A model generated the notes under the pieces. It was not told the origin of the DNA. It saw only the letters and a list, made by a program, of their open reading frames with translations, and made no database searches. From Acidobacteriota bacterium (GTDB lineage: Bacteria > Acidobacteriota > Vicinamibacteria > Vicinamibacterales > CAVVIG01): a stretch of 64,000 bases of DNA. The position numbers and the translations under genes are program-made. This document shows positions 5,195-41,880 of this stretch, in pieces. The stretch lies in contig JAGWRA010000232.1 in the NCBI GenBank assembly GCA_028876655.1, positions 639 through 64,638 on the forward strand, written 5' to 3'. Within the stretch, counting starts at the first letter, position 1; each line of letters opens with the position of its first letter.

Positions 5195-5872
5195 ATGCCG
5201 ACGCGTCCGCCTCACGCCGCGCGCGCTGCCGTCCCCACGCCCTCCGGCCTGACGGCCGCTCTGGCCCTCGCCGCAATCCTCTGGCTGGCTCTGCCGGCCG
5301 TCGGGCGCGCCCAGGAACCGCCGAAGAAGATCGGACCGTTCGTCGCCGATGTCCGTGGCTCGTTCGTAAAGTTCGGCCAGAGCGACGGCCTCGCGGCCGA
5401 GCACGGCCTGAACGGGACCGACCTCCCGTCGCACGGACTCGGCCTCGACCTGGGCGGCCACTTCTACTTCTTCAAGTGGCACGCGATCACGTTCGGTGCA
5501 GGCGCCGAAGTGCTGCTCTCGCGCGGGCATCAGGGGGCCACGACCACGGGCCCGGCGGTGACGACGACGTTCGATTCGTACGCGCCGCAGATCTCCTTCA
5601 ACTTCGGCTCCGGCGACGGCTGGAGCTACCTGAGCGGCGGCATCGGCAAGGGCTCGCTGACCATCCAGTCGGCCACGGCCCCACCCGAACAGGCCGAGAG
5701 TGTGAAGGTCATCAACTACGGCGGAGGCGCGCGGTGGTTCATGAAGAAGCGCCTCGCGTTCACCTTTGACGTCCGCTTCTACGATCTCCAGCAGCAACCT
5801 GCCGCGAACGGCCGGCCGGGCAATCCGCACGTCAGCTTCCTCGTGATGAGCGCGGGGATTTCGATCAAATAG
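5195..5872 (+). CDS. Outer-membrane beta-barrel protein (OmpW/porin-like)
   Basis: Signal-like N-terminus ending ALPAVGRAQE. Alternating hydrophobic beta-strand pattern with Gly/aromatic-rich segments to the C-terminus. Confidence 0.6.
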   Translation: MPTRPPHAARAAVPTPSGLTAALALAAILWLALPAVGRAQEPPKKIGPFVADVRGSFVKFGQSDGLAAEHGLNGTDLPSHGLGLDLGGHFYFFKWHAITFGAGAEVLLSRGHQGATTTGPAVTTTFDSYAPQISFNFGSGDGWSYLSGGIGKGSLTIQSATAPPEQAESVKVINYGGGARWFMKKRLAFTFDVRFYDLQQQPAANGRPGNPHVSFLVMSAGISIK

Positions 5873-5935
5873 TCCGCATGGGGCCCCACCCCCATGCGCA
5901 GCCGTCGCTCACGCTCCGGATCTTGCGATCGGCGG
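5873..5935 (+). repeat. REP-like hairpin element, copy R1
   Basis: GCATGGGG-CCCCAC-CCCCATGC hairpin (8-bp stem) plus tail GCAGCCGTCGCTCACGCTCCGGATCTTG. Begins 1 nt after the stop codon at 5870-5872. Confidence 0.85.
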
Positions 5936-5957
5936 CATTGCCACTTGGAGTGACGTC

Positions 5958-6018
5958 TCGCATGGGGCCCCACCGCAGGCGCAGCCGTCGCTCACGCTCG
6001 GGCTCCTGCGATCGGCGG
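5958..6018 (+). repeat. REP-like element, copy R2 (degenerate hairpin)
   Basis: Same element in tandem with R1. The 3' arm of the hairpin is mutated (CCGCAGGC) and the tail is conserved. Confidence 0.75.
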
Positions 6019-6079
6019 CCTTGTTCACCCTCCCGGCACCGCTCTTGCCCGCATCCATGCGGCGCGCCGGCCGAACTAT

Positions 6080-6092
6080 CTGAATCATTCAG
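6080..6092. promoter_or_regulatory. Perfect 6-1-6 palindrome CTGAATCATTCAG upstream of the helicase gene (candidate operator)
   Basis: Read directly from the sequence. It lies in a locally AT-richer patch about 45-60 nt before the 6138/6153 starts. Confidence 0.25.
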
Positions 6093-6137
6093 GCCTTCCA
6101 GCGGCTGCGCCGATCGCCGCGCAGAAACTGCGCCGGC

Positions 6138-8717
6138 GTGCGGGTGAGGGCGATGCAGGAAATGCCAGGGCCGTTCGTGGCGGGCGGACGCGTGAGGGCC
6201 CGTGGCGATGAATGGCGGATTGTCGACCTCGCGCCGGGCGACGGGTGCTGCGCGCTCACGCTGGTCGGCGCCGGCGCCCGCAACTGGCGCCGGCGGCGAG
6301 TCCTGCTCTGGCCGTTCGATCGCGTCGTGCCGGCCGCGTCGCCGCAACGCCCGCGTACGGTCCGTTTCGGCCGGTGGCTCGACGGCCTGCGGGCGCTGGT
6401 CGTCGCCACCCCCGGGGCCGGCCACCTGCGGGCCGCCGCGTCGGCTGACATCTCGCTGCTGCCCTACCAGCTCGAGCCGGCGCTCGCCGTGGTCCGAGGA
6501 CAGGCCTGCCGCCTCCTGCTCGCGGACGCGGTCGGACTGGGCAAGACGATTCAGGCCGGCCTCATTCTGGCGGAGCTCCGCGCGCGGGGCGAGCTGCAGC
6601 ATGCCCTCGTGCTCACGCCCGTGGGCCTGCGCGACCAGTGGGTCGACGAGCTGGCGCGGCGGTTCGCCATTCCGGCGACGGTCGTCGATCGCCATTTCGT
6701 CCGCGACACGCGCGCCACCTTTGCAACGCCCGTCAGTCCGTGGGCGCTCGGCGTGGTGTCGGTGGCGTCGTGCGACTACGCCAAACGGCCGGAGGTGCTG
6801 GCCGGCCTGGCCGCCCACTGGTGGGACCTGCTCATCGTCGACGAAGCCCACGCGGCGGCTGCGGCCGCCGAGCGGGGCCGGCTGATCGCGCGTGTCGCCG
6901 CGCGATCGCGCCACGTCGTGCTGCTCAGCGCGACGCCGCACGCGGGCGATCCCGCGGCCTTCTCCCGGCTCTGCGGCACCGGCGGGCTGGACGACGGCCC
7001 CATCGTGATCTTCCGCCGGTCGCGCCGCGAGGCCGGGCTCGGCGCCGACCGCCGGGTCGCCCGCCTGGCGGTCGCGCCGACGACAGCCGAGCGGTGGATG
7101 CACACCGTCCTGGCACGGTACACCCGCGCGGTCTGGACGGCGGCGTGGCGCACGCCGCGGGCCGAGGCGTGGCTGGCACTGGTCGTCCTGAACAAGCGCG
7201 CGCTGTCGAGCGCGGCCTCGCTGCACGCCTCGGTCGAGCGCCGCCTCCAGCTGCTCACCGATGCGGCCGGCGACTGGCGCCAGCCCGGCTTCCAGTTCGA
7301 CGAGGACGGCGAAGTCGACGCCGGCGACGAGGCCCCGCTGGCGCTCGGCGTTCCCGCGCTGGCCGACGGCGCGCGCGAGCGGGAGTACCTCCAGGCGCTG
7401 GCCGCGGCAGCCGCCCGTGCCGCTCGCCACGAGAGCAAGCTGGACGCGCTGCTCCGGTTGCTGCGGCGCGTCCACGAGCCGGTCCTTGTCTTCACGGAGT
7501 TTCGCGACACCCTCGCGAGGGTCGCGTCCGCGCTGCCTCCCGATCGCGTCGCCGTCCTGCACGGCGCGCTCGCCCGTCACGAGCGACGGGCGGCCGAACG
7601 GGCGTTCACCTCGGGCGACCGGCAGATTCTGCTGGCGACCGACGCGGCCGGTGAAGGCCTGAACCTCCAGGCCCGGTGCCGGTTCGTCGTCAATCTCGAG
7701 CTGCCCTGGAACCCGCACCGGCTGGAACAGCGGATCGGCCGGGTCGATCGCCTCGGGCAGTCACGCCGTGTGCACGCCGTGCACCTGGTGGCCCGCGGCA
7801 CCGGCGAAGCGCGCGTGCTCGCACGGCTCGCGTGGAAACTCGAACGGGCGCGGGTGGCTCTTGACGCGGACGAGCAGACTTCCGCGACGCCGTCCGAGCG
7901 CGACCTGCTGGGCACGATGGTCGGCGCCCGCGCACCGGGCGACCACCTCGACGGGCTGCCAGACGCGCATCGGGGGTCGGAGGAAACGCCGCCGACGATG
8001 CGGCTGTCGCTGCAGCGGGACGCGGCTGACGAAGCCCGCCATCAGGAAGCGCTGCGGCGGATCGCGGCCGGTCGCGTGCCTGCGGCCGCGCTCGGCACGG
8101 CCACGCTCGCGCGTCATCTCGCCGCCCTCGACCGGCAGGCGCCATGGCTCGGCACAGCGAAGCGCGGTCCGCTGAACGGGCTGACTGGAGGCCCCGGCCT
8201 GATCGTGCTCTTCCGCGGCCGCGTGGTCACGTCCGGCGGCCGCGCGGCCGACACGGGGCTGCTGCCCGTGTTCTATCGCGTGCCGGCCCTGGCGTGCGTG
8301 CGGTCGCGGCGCGAGGCACGCGCCATCGCCGAGGCGCTCCTGCGTGGCCAGCCGCCGGAACTCGCGCCGCTGCTGGAGACGGTGCAAGCCGCCCATCTCC
8401 GGTCGGCGGGCGACGCGTGGAGGCCACGGCTGGCGCTCGCTGCCCGGCGCGAGCGGCTGATGGCCGCACACGCGGAGGCGATGGCCGAGCTGGCCGGCCG
8501 GCTGGTGCAGCAGGGGCTTTTCGATCGCCGCGCGGTCCGCGCGGCAATGCAGCAGGCGCAGCAGCAGCTCAGCGACCGCGAGTCGGCAGCCAGCCGCCTT
8601 GCTGCGCTCGACGCGGCGGCAGCACTGGTCGCGGCAGGTCCGCCCGAACCGGTACTGGTGCTCATCGTCTCCGGCACCAGCGGCGCGACGGGCGCAGGAT
8701 GCGGAACGAACGGATGA
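6138..8717 (+). CDS. SNF2/SF2-family helicase-like ATPase with an uncharacterised ~270-aa C-terminal extension
   Basis: Motif I LLADAVGLGKT (GLGKT 6534-6548), DEAH box LIVDEAH (6840-6851). Helicase-C motifs LLATDAAGEGLNLQ and QRIGRVDRLGQ (7728-7760). Stop overlaps the next start (ATGA 8714-8717). True start may be ATG 6153. Confidence 0.9.
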   Translation: MRVRAMQEMPGPFVAGGRVRARGDEWRIVDLAPGDGCCALTLVGAGARNWRRRRVLLWPFDRVVPAASPQRPRTVRFGRWLDGLRALVVATPGAGHLRAAASADISLLPYQLEPALAVVRGQACRLLLADAVGLGKTIQAGLILAELRARGELQHALVLTPVGLRDQWVDELARRFAIPATVVDRHFVRDTRATFATPVSPWALGVVSVASCDYAKRPEVLAGLAAHWWDLLIVDEAHAAAAAAERGRLIARVAARSRHVVLLSATPHAGDPAAFSRLCGTGGLDDGPIVIFRRSRREAGLGADRRVARLAVAPTTAERWMHTVLARYTRAVWTAAWRTPRAEAWLALVVLNKRALSSAASLHASVERRLQLLTDAAGDWRQPGFQFDEDGEVDAGDEAPLALGVPALADGAREREYLQALAAAAARAARHESKLDALLRLLRRVHEPVLVFTEFRDTLARVASALPPDRVAVLHGALARHERRAAERAFTSGDRQILLATDAAGEGLNLQARCRFVVNLELPWNPHRLEQRIGRVDRLGQSRRVHAVHLVARGTGEARVLARLAWKLERARVALDADEQTSATPSERDLLGTMVGARAPGDHLDGLPDAHRGSEETPPTMRLSLQRDAADEARHQEALRRIAAGRVPAAALGTATLARHLAALDRQAPWLGTAKRGPLNGLTGGPGLIVLFRGRVVTSGGRAADTGLLPVFYRVPALACVRSRREARAIAEALLRGQPPELAPLLETVQAAHLRSAGDAWRPRLALAARRERLMAAHAEAMAELAGRLVQQGLFDRRAVRAAMQQAQQQLSDRESAASRLAALDAAAALVAAGPPEPVLVLIVSGTSGATGAGCGTNG

Positions 8718-11700
8718 TTCCCGGCATCCGCGGACAGCTCGTCTCGTCGTACTTCGCCGAGCACCATCTGGCCGACCGCTTCGGCGGTCGTCTCGGCGAA
8801 GCCACGCGGCCCGTGGCGCGGCGGCGGTTCGCCGCCTGGTGGGCCGCGTGCGAGCGGACGCTCGGACCGGCCTCGAGCCTGCGCGCGCTCTTCGATGTCG
8901 GGGCGCGGCCGCTGCTCGCCCTCCTCGGCCTCCCACCGGGACGGCTCGTGTGGCTGCCGGCGGGCGATGGGCTGCTGGCACCGCTGCCGGGTGCCGGGTC
9001 GGCGGCCGCACTGGTCGGCGCCTGGGACGCCGATCTCGGTCCGGCGTGGCGCGACGCCCGCCAGCACCTGGCGATGGACGTCGCCTGGGTACTCGCCTTC
9101 AACGGCCGGGCGCTCCGCCTCATCGAGGCGCCTCGGCCGTACGCGGCGCGCTTCCTCGAGTTCGATCTCGAGGCGGCGGCAGGCGACGAGCGGACGTTCT
9201 CCCTGCTCTGGGCCGTACTGCGGCGCGACGCCTTCGAGTCCTCCGCGGCGGCAGCCGGCGGCTGTCTGCTCGACGCGGTCCTCGAGACGGCCGCGCGGTA
9301 CGCGACGGGGGTATGCCGGTCGCTCCGCGACGGCGTGCTCACGGCGCTCGCCGAAATCCTGTCCGGCCTGGTCGCCACCGGCCACCCCGGACGCCGCCGG
9401 CGCCGGCCGGCGGCGGACGACGACCTCGACGCGCCGTTCGAACAGGCGCTCACGATCGTCTATCGCATCCTCTTCCTGCTGTTCGCGGAGGCACGCGGCC
9501 TCGTGCCGACCTGGCATCCGACCTACCGCGACAGCTACACGATCGAGGCGCTGCGCGACATGGCCGAGGGTTCCGGCGACGCGTCCGGCCTCTGGGAGTC
9601 GCTGCAGGCGATCGCGCGGCTGGCCGCGTCGGGCTGCCGCGCCGGCGATCTCGTCGTCACCCCCTTCAACGGGCGGCTGTTCTCGGCACAGCGGACGCCG
9701 CTCGCCGAGTCGACCCTCGACGACGAGCGGGCGCGGCGGGCGCTGGCGGCGCTGTCGAGCCGCACCGGCCGCGGTCAGAGACGGGAGCGGATTGCGTATC
9801 GCGACCTCGGCGTCGAGCAGCTCGGCGCGGTCTACGAGAGCGTCCTCGACTATCGTCCGCGGCGCGTCCAGGCGCCGGCGACCACGGTTCCGGCCGCGCC
9901 CGCTGCCGATCTCGTGCGGCTCGAGCGCCAGGGGGTCCGACGCAAGGCCACCGGCAGCTTCTATACGCCGCGCTCCATCACCGACTACCTGGTCCGCCGG
10001 ACGCTGGCTCCGCTCGTGCGCGGGGCCGGCCCGGAGGCCATCCTGTCGCTGCGCATCGTCGATCCGGCGATGGGCAGCGGGGCCTTTCTCGTCGCCGCCT
10101 GCCGCTACCTGTCGGCGCAGTACGAAGCGGCGCTGACCCGCCGCGGCGATTGCCGGCCCGAGGACATCGGCCCCGCCGATCGCAGCGCCTTCCGCCGGAC
10201 GATCGCGCTCCGCTGTCTCTATGGCGTCGACGCGAATCCGACGGCGGTGCAACTCGCGCGACTGTCCATCTGGCTCGCCACGCTGGCGGCCGACAAGCCG
10301 CTCACCTTCCTCGATCACCATTTCGTGACCGGCGACAGCCTCGTCGGCGCCTCGCTCGAGGACATCCGGCGTCAACCACCGGGACAACGGCGGCGGCCGG
10401 CCGTGCTGCCGCTGTTCGACGAGGACGCCGCGGGCGAGGCCCTGCGGGAGGCCTTGCCCGTGCGCGCGGGGCTGGCCGCGACGCCCGACGACACCGCCGA
10501 CGACGTCCGGCGCAAGGAGCGGGCGCTCGAGCGGCTGGCGGATCCCGAGGGCCTCCTCTCGCGATGGAAGGCGGCGGCCGACGCCTGGTGCGCCGCCTGG
10601 TTCCTCGACGACCGGCAGCGCCTGCCGCCCGGCCTCTTCGGCGAGTTGACGGACGCGATCGTCCGTGGCCGCTCGACGCTGCCCGCCGCGCTCGTCACGA
10701 CGTGGCGCACGCGGCTCGCGGCGGTGGCGGCCGCGAACCGCTTCTTTCACTGGACGCTCGAATTCCCGGAGGTCTTCTTCGACGAGGCGGGGCGGCCGCT
10801 CGCCGCCGGCGGCTTCGATGCGGTGATCGGCAACCCGCCCTGGGACATGCTGCGCGCCGACACGGGCGAACAGGCGGACCGCGAGCGGGCTGATGTCGGC
10901 CGCCGGATCGCGTTCGTCCGCGATTCCGGCCTCTACCGTGCGCGGTCGCACGGCCACCCGAATCTCTACCAGCTGTTCGTCGAACGGGCGCTGCGGATCG
11001 CGCGGCCCGGCGGACGGCTCGGGCTGGTCGTACCGTCCGGACTGTTCACCGACCACGGCAGTGCGGGCCTGCGGCGGCTGCTGCTCGAACGCTGCGACAC
11101 CGACGCGGTCGTCGGCATCGACAACCGGGCGGGCATCTTTCCGATCCACCGGAGCACGACGTTCCTGCTGCTGTCGACCACCGTCGGACGACCCACCGCC
11201 CGCATGGCCTGCCTCTTCCACGCGTCGCAGCCGGCGGCCCTCGACGCGCTGGACGACGACGCCTCCCGCGGGACGCGGGGGTACCCCGTGTCGCTCACGC
11301 CGGCCCTCATCCGCCGGCTCGGCGGCGACACGCTGACGATTCCGCTGCTCGCGACGGCCGACGACCTGGCGTTGACCGAGCGGCTGACGAGCTGCGCCCG
11401 TCCGCTGGCGGACCCGCTGGGCTGGGGCGCACGCTTCGGACGCGAGCTGAACGCCACCGACGATCGCGCGCACCTGCACGCCGGCGGCGGCGGCCTGCCG
11501 ATCGTGGAAGGGCGGCAGATCGAGCCGTTCCGGGTCGACCTCACCGCGTCGCGCCTGCGCATCGGGCGTCGCGCCGCGGCCCGCCTCGTCGATCCTGCCG
11601 CCACGTACGAGCGGGCACGGCTCGCCTACCGCGACGTGGCCGGCGCCACCAACCGGCTGTCGCTCATCGCGGCGGTGCTTCCCTCCGGCTGCCTCACGGT

Positions 11701-12064
11701 CCACACCGTCTTCTGCCTGAAGACACCGCTGCCCGACGAGGACCAGCTGTTCCTCTGCGGACTGCTGAACAGCCTCGTGCTGAACTACCTCGTGCGCCAG
11801 CGGATGACGACGCACGCGACGACGGCCATGGTGCACCGGCTGCCGGCGCCACGTCCGCCGCGGGCGTCGGACGACTTCCGGCGCGTGGTCGAGGCGGCGG
11901 GGGCGCTCGAGGCCGGCGCGGCCGCGCGGGAGGATCGGGCCAGGCTGCAGGCGGCGGTGGCACGGCTGTACGGTCTGACCCGGGCCGAGCTGCAGCACGT
12001 GCTGACGACCTTCCCGCTGCTCGACGACGGGGACAAGGCGGCGGTGCTCGCGGCCTGCAGCTGA
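8714..12064 (+). CDS. Type IIG / Eco57I / PglX-like N6-adenine DNA methyltransferase with a C-terminal TRD-like region (1116 aa)
   Basis: TGSFYTP (9950-9970), motif I DPAMGSGAF (10061-10087), motif IV NPPW (10832-10843). C-terminal LLNSLVLNYLVRQ-type specificity-domain signature. ATG 8714 chosen for the ATGA coupling; the upstream in-frame 8144-8713 extension is an Arg/Gly-rich shadow. Confidence 0.9.
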   Translation: MIPGIRGQLVSSYFAEHHLADRFGGRLGEATRPVARRRFAAWWAACERTLGPASSLRALFDVGARPLLALLGLPPGRLVWLPAGDGLLAPLPGAGSAAALVGAWDADLGPAWRDARQHLAMDVAWVLAFNGRALRLIEAPRPYAARFLEFDLEAAAGDERTFSLLWAVLRRDAFESSAAAAGGCLLDAVLETAARYATGVCRSLRDGVLTALAEILSGLVATGHPGRRRRRPAADDDLDAPFEQALTIVYRILFLLFAEARGLVPTWHPTYRDSYTIEALRDMAEGSGDASGLWESLQAIARLAASGCRAGDLVVTPFNGRLFSAQRTPLAESTLDDERARRALAALSSRTGRGQRRERIAYRDLGVEQLGAVYESVLDYRPRRVQAPATTVPAAPAADLVRLERQGVRRKATGSFYTPRSITDYLVRRTLAPLVRGAGPEAILSLRIVDPAMGSGAFLVAACRYLSAQYEAALTRRGDCRPEDIGPADRSAFRRTIALRCLYGVDANPTAVQLARLSIWLATLAADKPLTFLDHHFVTGDSLVGASLEDIRRQPPGQRRRPAVLPLFDEDAAGEALREALPVRAGLAATPDDTADDVRRKERALERLADPEGLLSRWKAAADAWCAAWFLDDRQRLPPGLFGELTDAIVRGRSTLPAALVTTWRTRLAAVAAANRFFHWTLEFPEVFFDEAGRPLAAGGFDAVIGNPPWDMLRADTGEQADRERADVGRRIAFVRDSGLYRARSHGHPNLYQLFVERALRIARPGGRLGLVVPSGLFTDHGSAGLRRLLLERCDTDAVVGIDNRAGIFPIHRSTTFLLLSTTVGRPTARMACLFHASQPAALDALDDDASRGTRGYPVSLTPALIRRLGGDTLTIPLLATADDLALTERLTSCARPLADPLGWGARFGRELNATDDRAHLHAGGGGLPIVEGRQIEPFRVDLTASRLRIGRRAAARLVDPAATYERARLAYRDVAGATNRLSLIAAVLPSGCLTVHTVFCLKTPLPDEDQLFLCGLLNSLVLNYLVRQRMTTHATTAMVHRLPAPRPPRASDDFRRVVEAAGALEAGAAAREDRARLQAAVARLYGLTRAELQHVLTTFPLLDDGDKAAVLAACS

Positions 12065-12078
12065 TCGACCTCATCCAA

Positions 12079-12131
12079 TCCGCATGGGGCCCCACCCCCA
12101 TGCGCTGCCGTCGCTCACGCTCCGGATCTTG
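12079..12131 (+). repeat. REP-like hairpin element, copy R3
   Basis: TCCGCATGGGGCCCCACCCCCATGCGCTGCCGTCGCTCACGCTCCGGATCTTG, near-identical to R1. Lies 15 nt after the methyltransferase stop. Confidence 0.85.
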
Positions 12132-12195
12132 ATAGCATCGACTCGCATTCAATTCGCCGGCGCCGGGACGTTGCGATATAGTCGGACATCGCGCC

Positions 12196-13737
12196 ATGCC
12201 CAACTACGGCTTCGCCATCGATCTGCGGAAGTGCATCGGCTGCCACGCCTGCACGATTGCCTGCAAGTCCGAGCATCAGATTCCCATCGGCGTGAACCGG
12301 TGCTGGGTGAAGACCGTCGAGAAGGGGACCTTTCCCGACACGCGCCGGTTCTTCTTCCCGGTGCTGTGCAACCAGTGCGACGAGGCGCCGTGCGCGCGCA
12401 TCTGCCCGACGGGTGCGCTCTTCAAGCGGCGCGACGGCATCGTCGATCTCCACGGCGACTCGTGCATCGGCTGCCGCGCCTGCATGGTGGCGTGTCCGTA
12501 CGATCAGCTGTTCATCGATCCGAACACGCACACCGCCGAGAAGTGCAACTTCTGCGCGAACCGGATCGAGAACCGGCTCGAGCCGGCGTGCGTGAGCGTC
12601 TGCCCGACGCAGTGCCGCATCTTCGGCGATCTCGACGATCCGACGAGCGAGGTCGCGATCATCGCGCGGTCGCAGGCGGTCACCGTCCGGAAGCCCGAGA
12701 AGGGGACGCGGCCGCGGGTGATCTACCTGGCTGCCGAGGACAGCGCGATCCGCCCCGAAACGGCCGCGCGGCCGCTGTGGTTCAAGGAAGGCCAGGTGCG
12801 GCTGCGCCCGCTGGCTTCCCCGGCCGAGGATCCCGCGCGGCCCGGTGCGCCGCGCGTCGACTACGACATGCCCCATCACAAGCCGTGGGGCGTCGACATG
12901 GCGATCTACCTGCTGACCAAGGGGATTTCGGCGGGCGCGATGCTGCTGAGTGCGCTGCTGTGGTGGCTCGGCGTCCGCGACGTCCTGACGACCCTCGTGG
13001 GGCCGGCCATCGCGCTGGCGGCCGTGGTCGCGACGGCGGTCATCCTGGTGATCGACCTGGAGCGGCCCGAACGGTTCCTCTACATCCTGCTCCGGCCGAA
13101 CTGGCGGTCGTGGATGGTCTGGGGGGCGTACTTCCTGACGGCGCACGGCGGCCTCTGCACGCTGTGGCTGCTGGCCGCCTGGTTCGGCTGGCCGCTCGCG
13201 CTGACCGCGCTGGTGGTCCCGGTCGTCGTGATGTCCGTGCTGGCCACCTGCTACACGGGCTTCCTCTTCGCGCAGGGTCTGGCGCGCGATCTCTGGCAGG
13301 GACCGCATGCGGCCTTCGACCTGCTGGCGCAGGCGCTCGCCGAGGGCTCTGCCGTGCTGCTGCTGGCGATGCTGGGGCTGCAGGTGGCCGGTGCGCCGGA
13401 CACGGCCGCGGCCGCGCCGTTGAGCTGGGTGCTGCTCGGGGCGCTCGGCGTGCACCTGCTGTTCATCGTCTTCGAGAACCTGCTGGCGCCGAGCGCGTCG
13501 CGGCATCACGAACTGGCGGTCGACGCGATCCGCCGCGGCCCGTTCGCCCGGCTCTTCTGGGGCGGCGCCATCGTCACCGGCGGCCTGCTGCCGATCGTGC
13601 TGCTGGCCCTCACGCTCGGACCGGGCGGCGGCCCGATGCTGCCCGCGCTCGCGGCAGCCGCCCTGCTGGCGCTCGCCGGCAGCTTCGCCTGGGAGTACAT
13701 CTGGGTGGAAGCCGGCCAGAGCGTGCCGCTGTCGTGA
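12196..13737 (+). CDS. Fused 4Fe-4S ferredoxin (PsrB/NrfC-like) and NrfD/PsrC-like 8-TM membrane subunit of a molybdopterin oxidoreductase
   Basis: N-terminal half has four Cys clusters (CIGCHACTIAC, CNQCDEAPC, CIGCRACMVAC, CNFC...C). C-terminal half has about 8 hydrophobic helices. No signal or Tat motif. Confidence 0.85.
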   Translation: MPNYGFAIDLRKCIGCHACTIACKSEHQIPIGVNRCWVKTVEKGTFPDTRRFFFPVLCNQCDEAPCARICPTGALFKRRDGIVDLHGDSCIGCRACMVACPYDQLFIDPNTHTAEKCNFCANRIENRLEPACVSVCPTQCRIFGDLDDPTSEVAIIARSQAVTVRKPEKGTRPRVIYLAAEDSAIRPETAARPLWFKEGQVRLRPLASPAEDPARPGAPRVDYDMPHHKPWGVDMAIYLLTKGISAGAMLLSALLWWLGVRDVLTTLVGPAIALAAVVATAVILVIDLERPERFLYILLRPNWRSWMVWGAYFLTAHGGLCTLWLLAAWFGWPLALTALVVPVVVMSVLATCYTGFLFAQGLARDLWQGPHAAFDLLAQALAEGSAVLLLAMLGLQVAGAPDTAAAAPLSWVLLGALGVHLLFIVFENLLAPSASRHHELAVDAIRRGPFARLFWGGAIVTGGLLPIVLLALTLGPGGGPMLPALAAAALLALAGSFAWEYIWVEAGQSVPLS

Positions 13738-13746
13738 ATGCCCGTC

Positions 13747-13775
13747 GGGATTGGGGATTGGGGATTCGGGATTGG
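13747..13775 (+). repeat. Tandem heptamer array H1 (GGGATTG-type, ~4 units)
   Basis: GGGATTG GGGATTG GGGATTC GGGATTG G, 10 nt after the stop at 13737. Confidence 0.8.
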
Positions 13776-13844
13776 CGCACGTCGCACGGACAGATCGCAC
13801 AGCGCCTGCGGCCGCGCCGAGCGGCCCGCCCGCGAGGCGCCGGC

Positions 13845-13866
13845 GCATGGGGGTGGGGCCCCATGC
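13845..13866 (-). repeat. REP-like hairpin core, copy R4 (reverse orientation, hairpin only)
   Basis: GCATGGGGGTGGGGCCCCATGC is the reverse complement of the R1/R3 hairpin. Lies between two subunit genes of the same oxidoreductase. Confidence 0.7.
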
Positions 13867-13914
13867 GCACTGAATGATGCCGACGCCCACACCTTCTGAA
13901 GCCATCGACCTCTT

Positions 13915-16683
<2,769 letters not shown>

Positions 16684-21596: not shown

Positions 21597-22679
21597 TTGG
21601 CTGTCCTCCTTCACGACACCGAGGTCGAGCAGCGAGGCGCCCTTCCAGACCGACGGGACGGCCCGGATGAACATCACGACGCCTGCCGCCGGCGCGCGCA
21701 CCTCCTGGAGGGTCCGGCCGACGAAGTCGGTCACATAGCCGACCCGCATCCCGGAGGCCACGTAGGTGCCGCGCGCCACGAGCGGATAGAAGATCCCGGG
21801 CTGCTCGCCCGACACGGTGAGCACCTTCTCAATCCAGACCGGATGGGCGATCGACCGTGCCGTCCCCGGCAGGATGTGCAGGTACCGCATCACCTGCTCG
21901 CAGCCCCGCACCAGCAGCGCCACATCGTCCGGTTCGACCGTGCCCGAGTGGCCGGCCTCGACGGCGATCGACGGCTTGCCGCGCGTCAGCGCCGTGTTGT
22001 GGAGGTAGCGCGACGCGGCGGGGTCCTTCGGCCAGTCGTCCGCCAGGATGATATGGTCGATGCCGAACGCCAGCACCATCTCGCGCGAGACGCGATCCAC
22101 GTCCGCCCGGCCGGTCGTCACCAGGTAGCTGTACGGCCGCAGGTTCTCGTCGATGTCGCCGCCGTGCAGATCGATGAGATAGTCGCACTGATCGACCACT
22201 TCCTTCGTCATGGCGTACGACGCGCGGTCGGTCTGCGTGCCGTCGGCCTTGCCGGGATAGGAGCCGTTCATGCTCTTGTGATCATACGGATTGACGTGCG
22301 GCACGATCTGCTCGAACGACGGCACGTTCACCAGCGGGACGACGATCACCGAGCCGGACAGGCGGGCGGGGTCCAGCCGTCCGATCAGCTGCTCCAGCGC
22401 GATGATCGACGCATACTCCGTCCCGTGCAGGCCGGCCACCAGGGCCAGGACGGGACCGGGCTTCGCGCCGTTGACGACCACCACCGGGATGTCGAGGGCG
22501 GGATCCGATCCGGCCGGGACGTGAATGACGCCGGTGGCCTTCTCGCCCCGGTGCGCCGTGGCCGTGCCGACGGTCAGGGACTGATGGGCGTCTGGTGCCG
22601 CGCCGGCCTGCGCACGGGCCGCGGCCGGCCAGGCGACCGCCGCCAGCGCGAGGGCGATCACGAATCTGCGGGTGATCAT
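21591..22679 (-). CDS. Succinylglutamate desuccinylase/aspartoacylase (AstE/AspA) family zinc hydrolase, secreted
   Basis: Signal peptide MITRRFVIALALAAVAWPAAARA, GLHGTEYAS and DLHGGD motifs. Start set at ATG 22679 rather than the 509-aa ORF start. Confidence 0.85.
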   Translation of the reverse strand: MITRRFVIALALAAVAWPAAARAQAGAAPDAHQSLTVGTATAHRGEKATGVIHVPAGSDPALDIPVVVVNGAKPGPVLALVAGLHGTEYASIIALEQLIGRLDPARLSGSVIVVPLVNVPSFEQIVPHVNPYDHKSMNGSYPGKADGTQTDRASYAMTKEVVDQCDYLIDLHGGDIDENLRPYSYLVTTGRADVDRVSREMVLAFGIDHIILADDWPKDPAASRYLHNTALTRGKPSIAVEAGHSGTVEPDDVALLVRGCEQVMRYLHILPGTARSIAHPVWIEKVLTVSGEQPGIFYPLVARGTYVASGMRVGYVTDFVGRTLQEVRAPAAGVVMFIRAVPSVWKGASLLDLGVVKEDSQP

Positions 22680-22794
22680 CGGCCTCTGCTCCTCGTTGCG
22701 CCTCGTGGCCGGCCGTGCGCGGGTCGGCCGGCTGCCGCGGCCGGACCGTTTGCCACGGCCGGGCGCGACTGAATATAGTCCTCGGGACGCCATT

Positions 22795-24258
22795 ATGCCT
22801 ACGCACCCGCTGTACATCGACGGCGCGTTCGCCGCCTCGTCCTCCTCCGACACGATACCCGTGCTGAATCCCGCGACACAGGAGGAGGTGGCGCGGGTCC
22901 CCGCCGGCAACGACCAGGACGTGGACGCGGCCGTCCGCGCGGCCCGCCGCGCGTTCGACGAGGGCCCGTGGCCGGAGACGACGGCGCAGGATCGGGGCCG
23001 CATCCTGTTCGCGCTGGCGAACGCCGTGCGGGAGCGGGCGGCCGAGCTGGCCGAGCTCGAGACCCTGCAGAGCGGCAAGCCGATCGTCGAGGCCGAGTTC
23101 GACATCGAGGACGTCGCCACCTGCTTCGAGTACTACGGCGGGCTGGCGACGAAGATTCACGGCGAGGTCGTCCCGGTGCCGGACAAGGCGATGAGCCTGG
23201 CGCTGCGCGAGCCGATCGGCGTGGCGGCGCAGATCGTCCCGTGGAACTATCCGCTGCTGATGGCCACCTGGAAGCTGGCGCCGGCCATCTGCGCCGGCTG
23301 CACGGCCGTGCTGAAGCCGGCCGAGCAGACGCCGCTGACGGCGCTCGCGCTCGCCTCGAGCTTCGCCGATGCCGGCCTCCCGCCGGGCGTCGTGAACATC
23401 GTCACCGGCCGCGGCGAAGGGGCCGGCGCCGCGCTCGTCAGCCATCCCGGCGTCGACAAGATCGCCTTCACGGGCAGCGTCGAGGTCGGCAAAGCGATCA
23501 TGCGCTCGGCCTCCGACTCGCTGAAGAAGCTGTCGCTCGAGCTCGGCGGCAAGTCGCCGAACATCTTCTTCGCCGACGCCGACTTCGAGGCCGCGGTCGA
23601 CGGCGCACTGTTCGGCATCTTCTTCAACCAGGGCGAGGTCTGCTCGGCCGGCAGCCGGATCCTCGTGCAGCGGCCGATCTACGCGAAGTTCGTGGAGGCG
23701 ATGGCCGAAAAGGCGAAGACCATCCGGCTCGGCCCCGGCCTCGACCGCGAGACGAAGATGGGACCGCTCGTCAGCCGCGAGCAGTTCGATCGCGTGCGCC
23801 AGTACCAGGCGATCGGCAAGCGGGAGGCCCGTCTCGTCGCTGGCGGCCACCGGGCGACCGGCGGCGCGCTCGATCGCGGCTGGTTCGTCGAGCCGACGAT
23901 CTTCGCCGACGTCGACAACTCGGCCCGGATCGCGCGCGAGGAGATCTTCGGGCCGGTGGCGTGCGTGATCCCGTTCGACGAAGAAGCCGACGCCATCCGG
24001 ATTGCCAACGACACCTACTACGGGCTGGCGGCGGCGGTCTGGACGCGCGACATCTTCAAGGCGATGCGCGCCGTCAAGGCGCTCCGTGCCGGCATCGTCT
24101 GGGTGAACCACATGCAGCCGACCTACGTGGAGGCGCCGTGGGGCGGCTACAAGCAGAGCGGCTTCGGCCGCGAGCTCGGCCGCTGGGGCGTGGACGAGTA
24201 CCTCCAGACCAAACAGGTCTACATCAACCTCGACGAGCAGCCGGTCGGCTGGTTCTGA
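22795..24258 (+). CDS. NAD(P)-dependent aldehyde dehydrogenase (betaine-aldehyde DH-like)
   Basis: FTGS.EVGK region (KIAFTGSVEVGKAI), catalytic ELGGKSP and FFNQGEVCSAGSR motifs. ATG 22795 (MPTHPLYIDG). Confidence 0.92.
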   Translation: MPTHPLYIDGAFAASSSSDTIPVLNPATQEEVARVPAGNDQDVDAAVRAARRAFDEGPWPETTAQDRGRILFALANAVRERAAELAELETLQSGKPIVEAEFDIEDVATCFEYYGGLATKIHGEVVPVPDKAMSLALREPIGVAAQIVPWNYPLLMATWKLAPAICAGCTAVLKPAEQTPLTALALASSFADAGLPPGVVNIVTGRGEGAGAALVSHPGVDKIAFTGSVEVGKAIMRSASDSLKKLSLELGGKSPNIFFADADFEAAVDGALFGIFFNQGEVCSAGSRILVQRPIYAKFVEAMAEKAKTIRLGPGLDRETKMGPLVSREQFDRVRQYQAIGKREARLVAGGHRATGGALDRGWFVEPTIFADVDNSARIAREEIFGPVACVIPFDEEADAIRIANDTYYGLAAAVWTRDIFKAMRAVKALRAGIVWVNHMQPTYVEAPWGGYKQSGFGRELGRWGVDEYLQTKQVYINLDEQPVGWF

Positions 24259-24295
24259 CGGCGCGCTCGAAGAGCAACCCGGACGCGAGAGGCGG

Positions 24296-25057
24296 ATGGT
24301 GCCCAGGACTCCACGGACGACCGGGACGCGGCGACCGCGCCATGCGGCGCTGGTTCGGGCGACGCACTGGCTGACCGCCCTGTCGTTCCTGGCCCTGCTC
24401 GTCACCGGTGCGGAGATTGTCATCTCCCACCCGCGTTTCTACTGGGGCGAAACCGGCAACGTCAACATGACCCCGGCCTTCTCGCTGCCGATCCCCTCCT
24501 CGCGGGCTTCCGTGCCGACAGGCTACGGCTACGTGCTTCCAGACCAGAACGGCTGGAGCCGCGCGCTGCATTTCGAGGCTGCCTGGCTCGTCGTGTTGAC
24601 GGGACTCGTCTACGTGATCTTCGGATTCGTCAGCGGCCATTTCCGGCGGAACCTGATTCCCGAGCCGTTAGAGCGCGGCCCGGGAAGGCTGGCGGCGGCC
24701 ATCGCGGCGCATCTGCGCTTCACGCGGCCGGGCCGCGAGGACGATGGCGCGTACAACGTCGTGCAGCGCTTGACGTACCTGCTGGTCATCTTCGGGCTGT
24801 TCCCCCTGGTCATCTGGACGGGGCTGGCGATGTCCCTGACATTCGAAGGCGCCTTTCCGGGAGCGGTGATCCTCCTGGGCGGCCGGCAGTCGGCGCGAAC
24901 GCTCCACTTCTTCGTCTCCATCCTCCTCCTGGGGTTTCTGCTGGTCCATGTCCTGATGGTCTATCTCGCGGGGTTCCGCCGGCGGGTGGGCGCAATGATC
25001 ACCGGCCGCCCCGTGGACGCCGTGGAGACTGTTGTGCAGGCCGGGGAGCCACGATGA
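24296..25057 (+). CDS. Membrane b-type cytochrome (cytochrome b561 / Ni-Fe hydrogenase cytochrome-b-like, MsrQ-like partner)
   Basis: About 4 TM helices with conserved His (RATHWLTALSF, ALHFEAAWLV, TLHFFVSILL). Stop overlaps the next start (ATGA 25054-25057). Confidence 0.8.
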   Translation: MVPRTPRTTGTRRPRHAALVRATHWLTALSFLALLVTGAEIVISHPRFYWGETGNVNMTPAFSLPIPSSRASVPTGYGYVLPDQNGWSRALHFEAAWLVVLTGLVYVIFGFVSGHFRRNLIPEPLERGPGRLAAAIAAHLRFTRPGREDDGAYNVVQRLTYLLVIFGLFPLVIWTGLAMSLTFEGAFPGAVILLGGRQSARTLHFFVSILLLGFLLVHVLMVYLAGFRRRVGAMITGRPVDAVETVVQAGEPR

Positions 25058-26509: not shown

Positions 26510-27268
26510 ATGGCGTCCGCTCCCCGCTTCACGCCGCGCTCGCTGACCTTCCTGCGGGCGCTGAAGCGGCACAACGATCGCGAGTGGTTCCGCGCACGGC
26601 GCGACGAGTACGAGACGCACGTGCGCGGGCCGCTCGTCGCGATCATCGAGCGGCTGGCGGCCGACTTCCGGTCGTTCGCCCCCGAGATGGTCGCCGATCC
26701 GAAGGTGTCCACCTACCGGATCTACCGCGACACGCGCTTCAGCGCCGACAAGTCACCGCTGAAGACGCACGTCGCCGGCATCTTCCCCGACCGCCGGCTC
26801 GGCAAGGGAGCCGGCGCCGCGCTGTACTTCCACGTCGGCCCGGACGAGATGTGGATCGGGGGCGGGCTCTACCACCCCGACACGCCGAAGCTGCACGCCG
26901 TGCGCGAGCACCTGGCCGGGAACTTCTCGCGCTTCCGGACGATCGTGCGGGCACCGGCGTTCCGCCGGACGTTCCAGGACTTGGAGGGCGACCGGATGCA
27001 GCGCGTGCCGCGCGGCTTCCCGGCCGATCACGCCGCGGCGGAGTACTTGAAGCTGCGGGACTTCCTCGTCGGCGTCGATCACCCCGTCCCCTTCGCGACC
27101 GACCCGCGCTTCTACCGGACGCTGGTCGCGACCTTCAGGCAGGCAATCCCGTTCGTGCGGTTCATCAACGAGGCGCTGGTGACAACGAAGGAGCGGCAGG
27201 CGTTCTGGGAGAACGTCGACATTCTTCAGTCCGCGCGGGGCCCCACCCCCGCGCGCAGCCGTCGCTGA
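26510..27268 (+). CDS. DUF2461 (TIGR02453) family protein
   Basis: FLRALKRHNDREWF...YRIYRDTRFSADKSPLKTH matches the family signature. The last 12 codons and the stop lie inside repeat R5. Confidence 0.85.
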   Translation: MASAPRFTPRSLTFLRALKRHNDREWFRARRDEYETHVRGPLVAIIERLAADFRSFAPEMVADPKVSTYRIYRDTRFSADKSPLKTHVAGIFPDRRLGKGAGAALYFHVGPDEMWIGGGLYHPDTPKLHAVREHLAGNFSRFRTIVRAPAFRRTFQDLEGDRMQRVPRGFPADHAAAEYLKLRDFLVGVDHPVPFATDPRFYRTLVATFRQAIPFVRFINEALVTTKERQAFWENVDILQSARGPTPARSRR

Positions 27269-27282
27269 CGCTCCGGAGCTTG
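27230..27282 (+). repeat. REP-like hairpin element, copy R5 (GCGCGGGG variant)
   Basis: TCCGCGCGGGGCCCCACCCCCGCGCGCAGCCGTCGCTGACGCTCCGGAGCTTG. Overlaps the 3' end of the DUF2461 gene. Confidence 0.8.
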
Positions 27283-41852: not shown

Positions 41853-41880
41853 CGTTCCTCGTGGACGGCACCGGCCGCCG

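What the first reader, a model, noticed from the sequence alone, without database searches (positions are those of the whole stretch)
6138..12064. Translationally coupled SNF2 helicase and type IIG/PglX-like m6A methyltransferase with no recognisable nuclease or partner genes (minimal DISARM-like or split type-ISP-like module?)
Gene 6138-8717 is an SF2/SNF2 ATPase with GLGKT at 6534-6548, DEAH at 6840-6851 and QRIGRVDRLGQ at 7728-7760. Its stop overlaps the start (ATGA, 8714-8717) of a 1116-aa gamma-class amino-methyltransferase. That protein carries TGSFYTP at 9950-9970, DPAMGSGAF at 10061-10087, NPPW at 10832-10843 and a C-terminal TRD-like region.

An SNF2 helicase plus an N6A methyltransferase is the DrmD+DrmMI accessory pair of class 1 DISARM. 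Helicase-MTase-TRD is also the domain order of single-chain type ISP restriction enzymes. PglX of BREX is the same methyltransferase type.

None of the obligate partners is nearby. I find no DrmA/B/C, BrxC/PglZ, HsdR/S, or any PLD, HNH or obvious PD-(D/E)xK gene. The flanks are an outer-membrane barrel gene and a Mo-oxidoreductase operon. The pair is bracketed by same-orientation REP-like elements at 5873-6018 and 12079-12131. Its composition looks native rather than recently acquired. A two-gene helicase/methylase unit without an obvious effector is a plausible undescribed defence or epigenetic system.
Basis: partly seen in the sequence, partly recalled or inferred. Interest (0 to 1): 0.78.

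Follow-up and report, generated by a model that had tools for sequence, protein, structure and literature searches.

The report
Stand-alone SNF2 motor plus adenine methylase
Two overlapping genes encode a RapA-like DNA motor and a BREX/DISARM-type adenine methyltransferase with no nuclease or other defence partner; the pair has been inherited vertically through a whole order of soil Acidobacteria, so it looks like a defence "marking" module that survives, and perhaps works, on its own.

Summary
In detail: genes, motifs, the ATGA overlap and the flanking repeats are all where stated.

The helicase (6138-8717) is a RapA/BrxHII/DrmD-type SNF2 ATPase. The 1116-aa protein (8714-12064) is a PglX/DrmMI/ArmB-type gamma-class N6-adenine methyltransferase with its own TaqI-like target recognition domain (TRD). 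Neither has a recognisable nuclease.

At least 558 species genomes, almost all Vicinamibacterales, encode the methylase. The helicase lies directly upstream wherever upstream DNA is available. No third gene is conserved.

The pair sits in conserved housekeeping synteny. Its divergence tracks that of a neighbouring housekeeping gene (Mantel r 0.94). Both genes are under purifying selection (omega 0.14-0.22), and the TRD shows no swapping.

Relatives at about 30% identity on plasmids lie in ARMADA/DISARM-like operons next to a giant DEAD/DEAH helicase of the size of the YprA-like effector. No homologue of it appears in 2.97 Mb of fetched related loci plus the window.

Best reading: an autonomous, ATP-assisted m6A modification module derived from the DISARM-I/ARMADA helicase-methylase pair. 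Whether it serves housekeeping epigenetics or nuclease-free exclusion of foreign DNA is open. It is a new variant of a known kind, of moderate interest.

The parts
5873..6008 (+). Two tandem copies of a REP-like hairpin element (5873-5925, 5956-6008) in the intergenic region upstream of the helicase. It is a dispersed repeat, not part of the system proper.
6138..8717 (+). RapA/BrxHII/DrmD-type SNF2 ATPase gene (859 aa from GTG 6138; the true start is possibly ATG 6153 or 6162).
   Evidence: Pfam SNF2-rel_dom + Helicase_C. PADLOC DrmD 263 bits. NCBIfam DISARM_DrmD 301 bits, below the 610 cutoff. Best PDB sequence and fold match is RapA over the full length.
6189..6332 (+). N-terminal small beta-barrel (aa 18-65), Tudor/KOW-like as in RapA and BrxHII.
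   Evidence: AF2 secondary structure. Full-length Foldseek alignment to RapA. Domain description of BrxHII/RapA in PMC12839542.
6435..7847 (+). SNF2 motor core (aa 100-570), with Walker A GLGKT at 6534-6548, DEAH at 6840-6851 and motif VI QRIGRVDRLGQ at 7728-7760.
   Evidence: core motif residues invariant in 20 homologues
8013..8672 (+). C-terminal alpha+beta domain (aa 626-845) with two long helices inserted in a five-stranded sheet, of RapA/BrxHII C-terminal type. It is preceded by a low-confidence linker (aa 571-617). No nuclease-like domain is evident.
8714..12064 (+). PglX/DrmMI/ArmB-type gamma-class N6-adenine DNA methyltransferase gene (1116 aa). Its start overlaps the helicase stop (ATGA).
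   Evidence: Best Foldseek matches are BREX PglX/BrxX over about 1050-1130 columns, then CamA, M.BseCI and M.TaqI.
8714..9238 (+). Family-specific N-terminal alpha/beta domain (aa 1-175). Conserved residues are R57, D/E61, R113, N130-G131, R135, D/E138, R141, E149 and D151; there is no conserved Lys. It is the fastest-evolving part of the protein. Its function is unknown; partner contact or sensing is possible.
   Evidence: The WxhAxNGxxLRL strand is shared with a plasmid ARMADA-type methylase.
9266..9913 (+). Helical spacer region (aa 185-400). It gives a weak MmeI_hel match at aa 249-323.
9914..11203 (+). Methyltransferase catalytic domain (aa 401-830), with motif I DPAMGSGAF at 10061-10087, motif IV NPPW at 10832-10843, and a helical insert of about 140 aa (aa 551-690).
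11411..11863 (+). TaqI-like target recognition domain (about aa 900-1050), followed by a C-terminal helical bundle running to 12061.
   Evidence: Weak Pfam TaqI_C match. TIGR02987 covers aa 700-1112. Fold matches to TaqI, CamA and BseCI. Conservation analysis.
12079..12131 (+). REP-like hairpin element 15 nt after the methylase stop; it may act as a transcript-end hairpin.
   Evidence: 9-bp GC-rich stem, z = -2.3

Best explanation
The locus is an autonomous two-gene operon. It encodes a RapA/BrxHII/DrmD-type SNF2 dsDNA translocase and a PglX/DrmMI/ArmB-type N6-adenine methyltransferase that carries its own TRD. It is the helicase-methylase module of DISARM class 1 and ARMADA, but without the YprA-family (DrmAB/ArmC) helicase-nuclease effector. 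It has been inherited vertically at a fixed chromosomal neighbourhood across the Vicinamibacterales (Acidobacteriota).

Proposed mechanism:
1. The two proteins are made together through translational coupling and form a complex (inferred).
2. The methylase reads a short, probably asymmetric, motif with its TaqI-like TRD, flips the adenine and methylates it from SAM. This is inferred from invariant motifs I and IV and from the PglX/CamA/TaqI-like fold.
3. The SNF2 partner hydrolyses ATP to translocate on duplex DNA. In doing so it licenses, loads or clears the way for the methylase. This is inferred by analogy with BrxX, which is inactive without its partners, and with the SNF2-dependent eukaryotic methylation factors Dnmt5 and DDM1/HELLS.
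4. The result is chromosome-wide m6A marking. With no nuclease in either protein, the unit does not cut DNA.

Because the locus is lineage-wide, syntenic and has a non-diversifying TRD, its main present-day role is more likely self-marking or epigenetic than classical restriction.
For: Shown:
- Both identities come from sequence and fold.
- The core catalytic residues of the motifs are invariant.
- The helicase lies directly upstream on the same strand in every locus with at least 1 kb of upstream DNA, about 70 loci.
- Stop-start spacing is -16 to +20 nt in 44 of 61 loci, with an exact 4-nt overlap in 17.
- No conserved third gene exists. Housekeeping synteny is conserved instead: radical-SAM gene, His kinase, HU, QueF, then helicase and methylase, then TauE, a 314-aa reductase-like gene and an amidohydrolase-like gene.
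- At least 558 species genomes hold the methylase.
- Pairwise divergence of the methylase and the helicase tracks that of a housekeeping neighbour 5 kb away (Mantel r 0.94, 0 of 2000 permutations).
- dN/dS is 0.14 for the methylase and 0.22 for the helicase, against 0.05 for the neighbour. All methylase regions are below 0.25.
- TRD identity (mean 0.55, minimum 0.40) follows catalytic-domain identity (mean 0.61), with no swaps among 58 sequences.
- GC3 is native-like.
- No relatives occur on viral contigs.
- No homologue of the two plasmid DEAD/DEAH (YprA-sized) helicases occurs in 2.97 Mb of fetched related loci plus the window.
- Plasmid relatives at 29-33% identity sit next to DEAD/DEAH helicases of 1740-1840 aa, as in ARMADA/DISARM operons.

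From the literature:
- The BrxHII-like helicase plus PglX-like methylase pair is the module shared by DISARM class 1 and ARMADA (10.1101/2025.09.15.676423).
- DrmMI expressed without the rest of DISARM methylates ACACAG (10.1101/2021.12.28.474362).
Against: - No methylome data exist, so neither methylation nor a motif is shown.
- Formation of a complex, and any role of ATP hydrolysis in methylation, are inferred only.
- The proteins evolve three to four times faster (by dN) than the housekeeping neighbour. The methylase N-domain is highly variable (mean identity 33%). Both features are more typical of conflict systems than of core regulators.
- In the known homologous systems (ARMADA, DISARM, BREX) the methylase and helicase are needed for defence itself, not only for marking.
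- Whole genomes were not available, so an effector encoded elsewhere cannot be excluded.
- How universal the pair is within the order could not be measured. In 33 of 59 loci anchored on an upstream synteny gene, the pair was not within 10 kb, although in at least five of these it lies 23-80 kb away on the same contig.
Confidence: 0.5

Rival explanations
1. It is a minimal, nuclease-free defence system. The SNF2-methylase complex marks host DNA. It recognises unmethylated motifs on incoming phage or plasmid DNA and blocks their replication or entry by ATP-driven translocation or occupancy. This would be BREX-like exclusion without degradation.
For: - The closest relatives are defence components (PADLOC DrmD/DrmMI; ARMADA-type operons on plasmids).
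- In ARMADA, the helicase Walker motifs and the methylase NPPW motif are required for protection.
- In Serratia DISARM, deleting drmABC did not abolish protection against phages T1 and M13. For phage Nami, full restoration of phage replication required deleting drmD and drmMI in addition to drmABC.
- The proteins evolve faster than housekeeping neighbours, and the N-domain is very variable.
Against: - Inheritance is vertical, in conserved housekeeping synteny, over deep divergence.
- There is no TRD diversification or swapping. In E. coli ARMADA, by contrast, armB is the variable gene.
- The locus is not in a defence island, and no effector is present.
- No experimental precedent exists for the pair alone conferring defence.
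Confidence: 0.25
2. It is the sensor/modification half of a DISARM- or ARMADA-like system whose effector (a YprA-family helicase-nuclease or other) is encoded elsewhere in the genome.
For: All characterised homologous pairs work with such an effector. Only 64 kb of this genome, and at most about 10 kb on each side of the gene in each relative, could be inspected.
Against: In known systems the effector is always adjacent. No homologue of the two plasmid DEAD/DEAH (YprA-sized) helicases was found in 2.97 Mb of fetched related loci plus the window. A partner kept in trans across several hundred species would be unusual.
Confidence: 0.1
3. It is a split type ISP/IIG-like restriction enzyme. A cryptic nuclease sits in the methylase N-terminal alpha/beta domain, with the conserved D/E138...E149-x-D151 acting as a BamHI-like acidic triad. 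The SNF2 motor supplies translocation.
For: The N-domain is alpha/beta, with conserved acidic residues at the end of one predicted strand and within the next. The overall domain order resembles MmeI and type IIL enzymes, with weak MmeI_hel and TaqI_C matches.
Against: - There is no conserved Lys and no sequence match to any nuclease family.
- The top 50 Foldseek matches of the whole protein are PglX, CamA, BseCI and TaqI, which are all methylases, and include no nuclease.
- The N-domain is the least conserved region.
- A restriction enzyme with one asymmetric site and a fixed specificity, inherited vertically, is atypical.
Confidence: 0.08
4. It is a decaying remnant of a DISARM/ARMADA/BREX system with no current function.
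For: The proteins are shorter than their plasmid relatives: 859 against 920-965 aa, and 1116 against 1311-1338 aa. The helicase is split in L001 and interrupted by an IS element in L002.
Against: dN/dS is 0.14-0.22. The core catalytic residues are invariant. The operon structure and the tight stop-start spacing are kept in most of 61 measured loci. Several loci with split genes (for example L011, L015, L056) are from contig-named MAGs that look like long-read assemblies (my inference, not verified), so the breaks may be sequencing indels.
Confidence: 0.03

Closest known systems
DrmD + DrmMI of class 1 DISARM (Serratia sp. SCBI; Ofir et al. 2018; Aparicio-Maldonado et al. 2021 preprint)
   Same: An SNF2 helicase gene is immediately followed by a large gamma-class N6-adenine methylase gene. 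These are the best PADLOC matches for both proteins. DrmMI methylates an asymmetric 6-bp motif.
   Different: No drmA, drmB or drmC. The helicase scores 301 bits against the NCBIfam DrmD cutoff of 610. Both proteins are shorter. The locus is chromosomal, syntenic and vertically inherited rather than part of a defence island.
ArmA + ArmB of ARMADA types I and II (bioRxiv 10.1101/2025.09.15.676423; mBio 2026, PMC13463889)
   Same: A BrxHII/RapA-like SNF2 helicase is paired with a PglX-like methylase in the same gene order. The Walker A Lys (K136) and Walker B (D235/E236) have almost the same residue numbers as ArmA K136 and D236. The Roseomonas plasmid relative (29% identity for the methylase, 32% for the helicase core) sits next to a 1740-aa DEAD/DEAH helicase in the ARMADA type I gene order, and the Thermus one lies in an operon with an 1838-aa DEAD/DEAH helicase.
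   Different: No YprA-like ArmC and no GajB-like ArmD. The helicase aligns only over the motor core. In E. coli armB is the variable gene, whereas here the TRD does not diversify.
BREX PglX/BrxX (with BrxHII in types 3 and 5)
   Same: It is the best structural match over the full length of the methylase (8c45, 9ewz). The helicase has the Tudor + SNF2 + RapA-like C-terminal layout described for BrxHII.
   Different: No BrxC or PglZ. NCBIfam PglX models score 32-46 bits against cutoffs of 400-900. The N-terminal domain differs from that of BrxX.
E. coli RapA (HepA), the RNA-polymerase-associated SNF2 ATPase
   Same: It is the closest solved relative of the helicase by sequence (E = 2e-32) and by fold over the full length.
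   Different: The helicase scores 148 bits against the RapA equivalog cutoff of 576. It has one N-terminal beta-barrel rather than two. It is strictly operonic with a DNA methylase. Binding to RNA polymerase was not tested.
Type IIL/IIG (MmeI) and type ISP (LlaGI) restriction-modification enzymes
   Same: The order of helical spacer, gamma-class methylase and TRD is the same, and a motor is combined with a methylase.
   Different: No PD-(D/E)xK or Mrr nuclease was detected. The motor is of the SNF2/RapA type and is a separate polypeptide.
Lineage-specific orphan adenine methylases (CamA of C. difficile; CcrM; Dam) and SNF2-dependent eukaryotic methylation (Dnmt5; DDM1/HELLS)
   Same: There is no cognate nuclease, conservation is lineage-wide and vertical, and specificity appears stable. 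CamA is a strong fold match. In the eukaryotic cases an SNF2 ATPase is coupled to DNA methylation.
   Different: Bacterial orphan methylases have no dedicated motor partner. The eukaryotic systems make 5mC and are unrelated in their methylase domain. These are analogies only.

Membership tests
DISARM class 1 | Core triplet drmA (helicase), drmB (DUF1998) and drmC (PLD) adjacent to drmD and drmMI | tested here: not met
   None is present in the window flanks or in about 70 related loci. No hit to the two plasmid DEAD/DEAH (YprA-sized) helicases in 2.97 Mb.
DISARM class 1 | DrmD equivalog (NCBIfam NF038317, cutoff 610 bits) | tested here: not met
   300.7 bits; it is the best-scoring family but lies below the cutoff. 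PADLOC DrmD scores 263 bits.
DISARM class 1 | DrmMI-type N6-adenine methylase | tested here: met
   PADLOC DrmMI PDLC02643 scores 348 bits, E = 4e-104, the best hit.
ARMADA (types I and II) | [quoted passage not shown] | tested here: not met
   Such a large helicase is absent here and in all related loci. It is present next to the plasmid relatives.
BREX | BrxC/PglY ATPase and PglZ phosphatase in the locus; PglX equivalog | tested here: not met
   No such neighbours. PglX models score 32-46 bits against cutoffs of 400-900.
Type IIG/IIL restriction-modification enzyme (MmeI-like) | N-terminal PD-(D/E)xK nuclease domain with a conserved D...(D/E)xK motif | tested here: not met
   No conserved Lys in the N-domain across 42 and 30 homologues. 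No nuclease family hit. The top 50 fold matches include no nuclease. A non-canonical acidic triad cannot be formally excluded.
Type ISP restriction-modification enzyme | A single polypeptide with Mrr nuclease, SF2 helicase, methylase and TRD | tested here: not met
   There are two polypeptides, no Mrr domain, and the motor is of the SNF2/RapA type.
RapA (RNA polymerase recycling factor) | RapA equivalog score; tandem N-terminal Tudor-like domains that bind RNA polymerase | tested here: not met
   148.5 bits against a cutoff of 576. A single N-terminal beta-barrel in the model. Binding to RNA polymerase is not testable here.
Gamma-class N6-adenine DNA methyltransferase | Motif I (xxDPAMGSG) before motif IV (NPPW), followed by a C-terminal TRD | tested here: met
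   D450/P451/M453-S455 and N707-W710 are invariant. Pfam N6_Mtase and Eco57I match. The fold resembles TaqI, CamA and PglX.
SNF2 family ATPase | Walker A, DExH and motif VI within a bilobed SNF2 core | tested here: met
   Pfam SNF2-rel_dom + Helicase_C. The core motif residues are invariant. Foldseek matches RapA, ISWI, Chd1 and INO80.
Orphan (solitary) lineage-conserved methylase | No cognate nuclease; vertical, lineage-wide conservation; stable specificity; a regulatory phenotype | tested here: inconclusive
   No nuclease was found, inheritance is vertical and the TRD does not diversify. Prevalence per genome, the motif and any phenotype are not testable here.

The most novel reading that the evidence does not exclude
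The Vicinamibacterales have domesticated the helicase-methylase sensor module of DISARM/ARMADA-type immunity into a chromosomal, motor-driven adenine methylation machine. This would be a bacterial counterpart of the SNF2-dependent DNA methylation of eukaryotes (Dnmt5, DDM1/HELLS). In it, ATP hydrolysis by a RapA-like translocase, possibly riding with RNA polymerase, is required to deposit a lineage-wide m6A mark that has a housekeeping (regulatory or replication/repair) role.
Probability: 0.25. Interest if true: 0.75.

Novelty: new variant of a known kind. Interest (0 to 1): 0.55.

Why it matters
The helicase-methylase pair is the least understood part of DISARM class 1 and ARMADA. The same pairing (BrxHII with the distinct methylase PglXI) occurs in BREX types 3 and 5. 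It is not known what the SNF2 partner does for the methylase, or whether the pair can sense foreign DNA by itself.

Here nature has isolated that pair. It has no effector, is kept under purifying selection in at least 558 species genomes, and sits at a stable chromosomal site. That makes it a clean system in which to ask whether an SNF2 motor is needed for m6A deposition, and whether methylation-based exclusion can work without any nuclease.

If the pair proves to be housekeeping, it would be an example of an immune module domesticated into an epigenetic one in an abundant but poorly studied soil lineage. If it is only a modification module, it is a modest addition to the catalogue.

Tried and rejected
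- **REP elements as att sites or island borders.** Rejected: further copies lie elsewhere in the window and in L001.
- **Recent acquisition, judged from high GC.** Rejected: the excess is in GC1 and GC2, GC3 is native-like, and the same offset appears in 46 of 47 related loci.
- **A conserved third gene.** I clustered ORFs from 83 loci. Single linkage on all ORFs was useless because of antisense ORFs in high-GC DNA. After a GC3-based filter, only housekeeping synteny emerged.
- **A nuclease in the unassigned regions.** Pfam at E <= 10 on four sub-regions gave only weak MmeI_hel and TaqI_C matches. A PDB profile search with the N-domain alignment gave only spurious ARM-repeat hits. A search of 1.84 billion representative proteins with the N-domain returned only this family, 469 clusters.
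- **Prevalence of the pair, estimated by anchoring on an upstream synteny gene**. Inconclusive: the pair is often displaced 23-80 kb by inserted blocks, so 'absent within 10 kb' does not mean absent.
- **Phage origin.** No relatives on viral contigs.
- **Literature on the stand-alone pair.** None of them, nor look-ups inside the ARMADA, BREX-diversity, CoCoNuT and component-modularity papers, turned up a description of the pair without partners.
- **Promoter/terminator consensus scan.** It found nothing in 5700-12300, which is uninformative for an Acidobacterium.

Full report
**1. Observation**

The window is about 70% GC. ORF 6138-8717 (+) and the ORF ending at 12064 (+) are present. The core residues of these motifs are invariant in alignments of 20 homologues each: K136, D235-E236 and the Q531...Q541 core in the helicase; F416-P419, D450/P451/M453-S455 and N707-W710 in the methylase.

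The helicase stop TGA (8715-8717) overlaps the ATG at 8714. The homologue consensus begins MxPGxxGxLVS, which supports 8714 as the methylase start rather than the in-frame ATG at 8699 used by one gene caller. The helicase start is less certain. Conservation begins at about residue 11-16, so ATG 6153 or 6162 may be the true start.

The flanks are as described: an OMP beta-barrel gene upstream, and a fused 4Fe-4S/NrfD gene plus a molybdopterin oxidoreductase downstream.

The repeats at 5873-5925, 5956-6008 and 12079-12131 are real. The same element also occurs at 13843-13866(-), partly at 27258-27282, and once in the closest relative. It is a dispersed REP-like hairpin, not a pair of island borders.

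The pair is 74-75% GC against 66-70% in the flanks. The excess lies in codon positions 1 and 2, reflecting Ala/Arg/Gly-rich proteins. GC3 (0.88-0.91) is like that of the neighbours, and the same offset is seen in 46 of 47 related loci.

**2. What the two proteins are**

*Helicase.* Pfam gives SNF2-rel_dom + Helicase_C. The best PADLOC family is DrmD (263 bits), followed by BrxHI/BrxHII models (216-220 bits). The best NCBIfam family is DISARM_DrmD at 301 bits, well under its 610-bit cutoff; RapA scores 148 bits against a cutoff of 576.

The closest solved relative by sequence is E. coli RapA (E = 2e-32). The AlphaFold2 model (pLDDT 78.9) matches RapA over its full length by Foldseek (E = 3e-26) ahead of the eukaryotic remodellers. 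The model shows:
- an N-terminal small beta-barrel (aa 18-65);
- the SNF2 core (aa 100-570);
- a low-confidence linker (aa 571-617);
- a C-terminal alpha+beta domain with two long inserted helices (aa 626-845).

This is the Tudor + SNF2 + RapA-type C-terminal layout recently described for BrxHII (PMC12839542). No nuclease-like domain is evident.

*Methylase.* Pfam gives Eco57I, N6_Mtase and MmeI_Mtase over aa 410-810. The best PADLOC family is DrmMI (348 bits), followed by type IIG models. NCBIfam PglX models score only 32-46 bits. Weak matches suggest an MmeI-type helical spacer (aa 249-323) and a TaqI_C-type TRD (about aa 929-1034).

The model (pLDDT 77.5) matches BREX PglX/BrxX over about 1050-1130 alignment columns (E = 3e-14). 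The next matches are the methylases CamA, M.BseCI and M.TaqI, and the top 50 include no nuclease.

The N-terminal 175 residues form an alpha/beta domain found only in this family: a search of 1.84 billion representative proteins returned 469 clusters, all of this type. It has no PDB or Pfam relative by sequence. Its conserved polar residues are R57, D/E61, R113, N130, R135, D/E138, R141, E149 and D151, and there is no conserved lysine. A canonical PD-(D/E)xK site is therefore absent. A non-canonical acidic triad (D138...E149-x-D151) cannot be excluded. This domain is the fastest-evolving part of the protein (mean pairwise identity 33%).

**3. Relatives and genomic context**

Full-length homologues of both proteins are numerous. 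Almost all are Acidobacteriota of the order Vicinamibacterales. A few MAGs labelled Acidimicrobiia or Bifidobacteriaceae carry the same synteny and are probably mislabelled.

In every locus with at least 1 kb of upstream sequence (about 70 loci), a helicase homologue lies directly upstream on the same strand. The helicase stop lies within -16 to +20 nt of the methylase start in 44 of 61 loci, with the exact 4-nt overlap in 17.

Clustering of neighbouring genes found no conserved third partner. It found conserved housekeeping synteny instead:
- upstream: a radical-SAM gene, a dCache histidine kinase, HU, QueF and sometimes Smr;
- downstream: TauE, a 314-aa reductase-like gene and an amidohydrolase-like gene.

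The Fe-S/Mo-oxidoreductase cassette seen in the window is present in only a subset of loci.

Pairwise divergence of the methylase and the helicase correlates tightly with that of the radical-SAM neighbour (r = 0.94 and 0.89; Mantel test for the methylase, 0 of 2000 permutations reached the observed value). This is what vertical descent predicts.

No relatives occur on viral contigs. On plasmids the nearest relatives are only 29-33% identical. There they sit in larger operons next to DEAD/DEAH helicases of 1740-1840 aa, as in ARMADA and DISARM. No homologue of those large helicases exists in the 2.97 Mb of fetched related loci plus the window.

**4. Is the pair functional?**

dN/dS is about 0.14 for the methylase and 0.22 for the helicase, against 0.05 for the housekeeping neighbour. 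Every region of the methylase, including the N-domain and the TRD, is below 0.25. The decaying-remnant reading is therefore rejected. Several loci with split genes come from contig-named MAGs that look like long-read assemblies (not verified), so the breaks may be indel errors. L002 has a genuine IS insertion.

The TRD-like region is nearly as conserved as the catalytic domain: mean identity 0.55 against 0.61, minimum 0.40. There are no outlier pairs that would indicate TRD swapping. This contrasts with E. coli ARMADA, where armB is the variable gene of the island.

**5. Mechanism**

Shown:
- two catalytically intact enzymes, an SNF2 ATPase and a gamma-class m6A methylase with its own TRD;
- tight operonic coupling;
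- no recognisable nuclease;
- no adjacent partner;
- vertical inheritance.

Inferred: the methylase deposits m6A at a short, probably asymmetric, motif. The SNF2 partner uses ATP to translocate on duplex DNA and to load, license or clear the way for the methylase. Three precedents bear on this inference.
- BrxX is inactive without its partners (PMC11842806).
- DrmMI, by contrast, methylates ACACAG partially when expressed without the rest of DISARM. Helicase dependence is therefore not assured.
- Fungal Dnmt5 needs its SNF2 ATPase step to methylate.

Because nothing in the pair can cut DNA, any anti-invader effect would have to be non-degradative, as in BREX, or rely on an effector encoded elsewhere. 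I weigh the readings as follows.

| Reading | Weight |
|---|---|
| Autonomous ATP-assisted modification module, chiefly self-marking or epigenetic | about 0.5 |
| Nuclease-free defence | about 0.25 |
| Effector encoded in trans | about 0.1 |
| Cryptic nuclease (split type ISP/IIG) | about 0.08 |
| Remnant without function | about 0.03 |

**6. Comparison with known systems**

The pairing of a BrxHII/RapA-like helicase with a PglX-like methylase is already recognised as the module shared by DISARM class 1 and ARMADA types I and II (bioRxiv 10.1101/2025.09.15.676423; mBio 2026). The Walker residues even carry nearly the same numbers (K136, D235/E236).

The locus fails the membership tests for DISARM (no DrmABC; DrmD below cutoff), ARMADA (no YprA-like ArmC), BREX (no BrxC or PglZ), type IIG/IIL (no nuclease motif) and type ISP (not fused, no Mrr). 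It works most like the modification arm of DISARM-I or ARMADA.

In its evolutionary behaviour it resembles lineage-specific orphan methylases such as CamA. I found no description of the stand-alone pair in the six full-text searches I ran or in the papers read.

**7. Verdict**

The type-ISP analogy and the significance of the REP bracket do not hold.

The finding is a new variant of a known kind: the DISARM/ARMADA helicase-methylase module living alone as a vertically inherited chromosomal operon in an entire order of soil Acidobacteria. It is of moderate interest. It offers a naturally minimal system for asking what the SNF2 partner does for PglX-type methylases, and whether it can act without a nuclease. 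Nothing yet shows a new mechanism.

Noticed in passing
window 5873-5925, 5956-6008, 12079-12131, 13843-13866(-), 27258-27282; L001 7035-7056: A dispersed REP-like element of about 53 nt. Its core is a 9-bp GC-rich hairpin (GCATGGGG...CCCCATGC). It sits in intergenic regions, including directly after the methylase stop, and is shared with the closest relative but with none of the other 164 fetched loci.
   Followed up: partly
window 12196-16683: A single 513-aa ORF fuses a 4Fe-4S dicluster domain (Fer4_11) to an NrfD-type membrane subunit and precedes a 922-aa molybdopterin oxidoreductase. This two-gene cassette is present between the methylase and TauE in only about 15 of the related loci, so it is a variable insertion in otherwise conserved synteny.
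   Followed up: partly
L002 5515-13450: In one relative the helicase is split into two ORFs. An IS element (rve transposase plus HTH_Tnp_1) and a 23S_rRNA_IVP-family gene lie between the helicase and the methylase. The methylase itself is intact.
   Followed up: no
L039, L041, L058, L141, L151: MAGs labelled Acidimicrobiia or Bifidobacteriaceae carry the pair, or its upstream radical-SAM neighbour, within typical Vicinamibacterales synteny. This suggests mis-binned contigs or wrong taxonomic labels.
   Followed up: partly
L120/L008, L153/L024, L144/L067, L125/L049, L135/L083: In several genomes the pair lies 23-80 kb, rather than 5 kb, from the radical-SAM/His-kinase block on the same contig. 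A block of other genes has been inserted between them in part of the order.
   Followed up: partly
window 22282-24423(-), 41677-43566(+), 57665-59467(+): Three ORFs of 600-712 aa have no Pfam match at E <= 1e-5. They may be real genes of unknown family or spurious long ORFs of the kind common in 70% GC DNA.
   Followed up: no
window 6138-6192: The helicase start codon is ambiguous. The candidates are GTG 6138, ATG 6153, ATG 6162 and the gene caller's GTG 6192. Conservation among homologues starts at about residue 11-16, which argues against 6192.
   Followed up: partly
L086-L096 (close relatives): Synonymous divergence of the helicase and methylase is about 1.5-2 times that of the radical-SAM gene 5 kb away in the same genome pairs. 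This may reflect weaker codon constraint, or some allelic exchange of the pair among related lineages.
   Followed up: no
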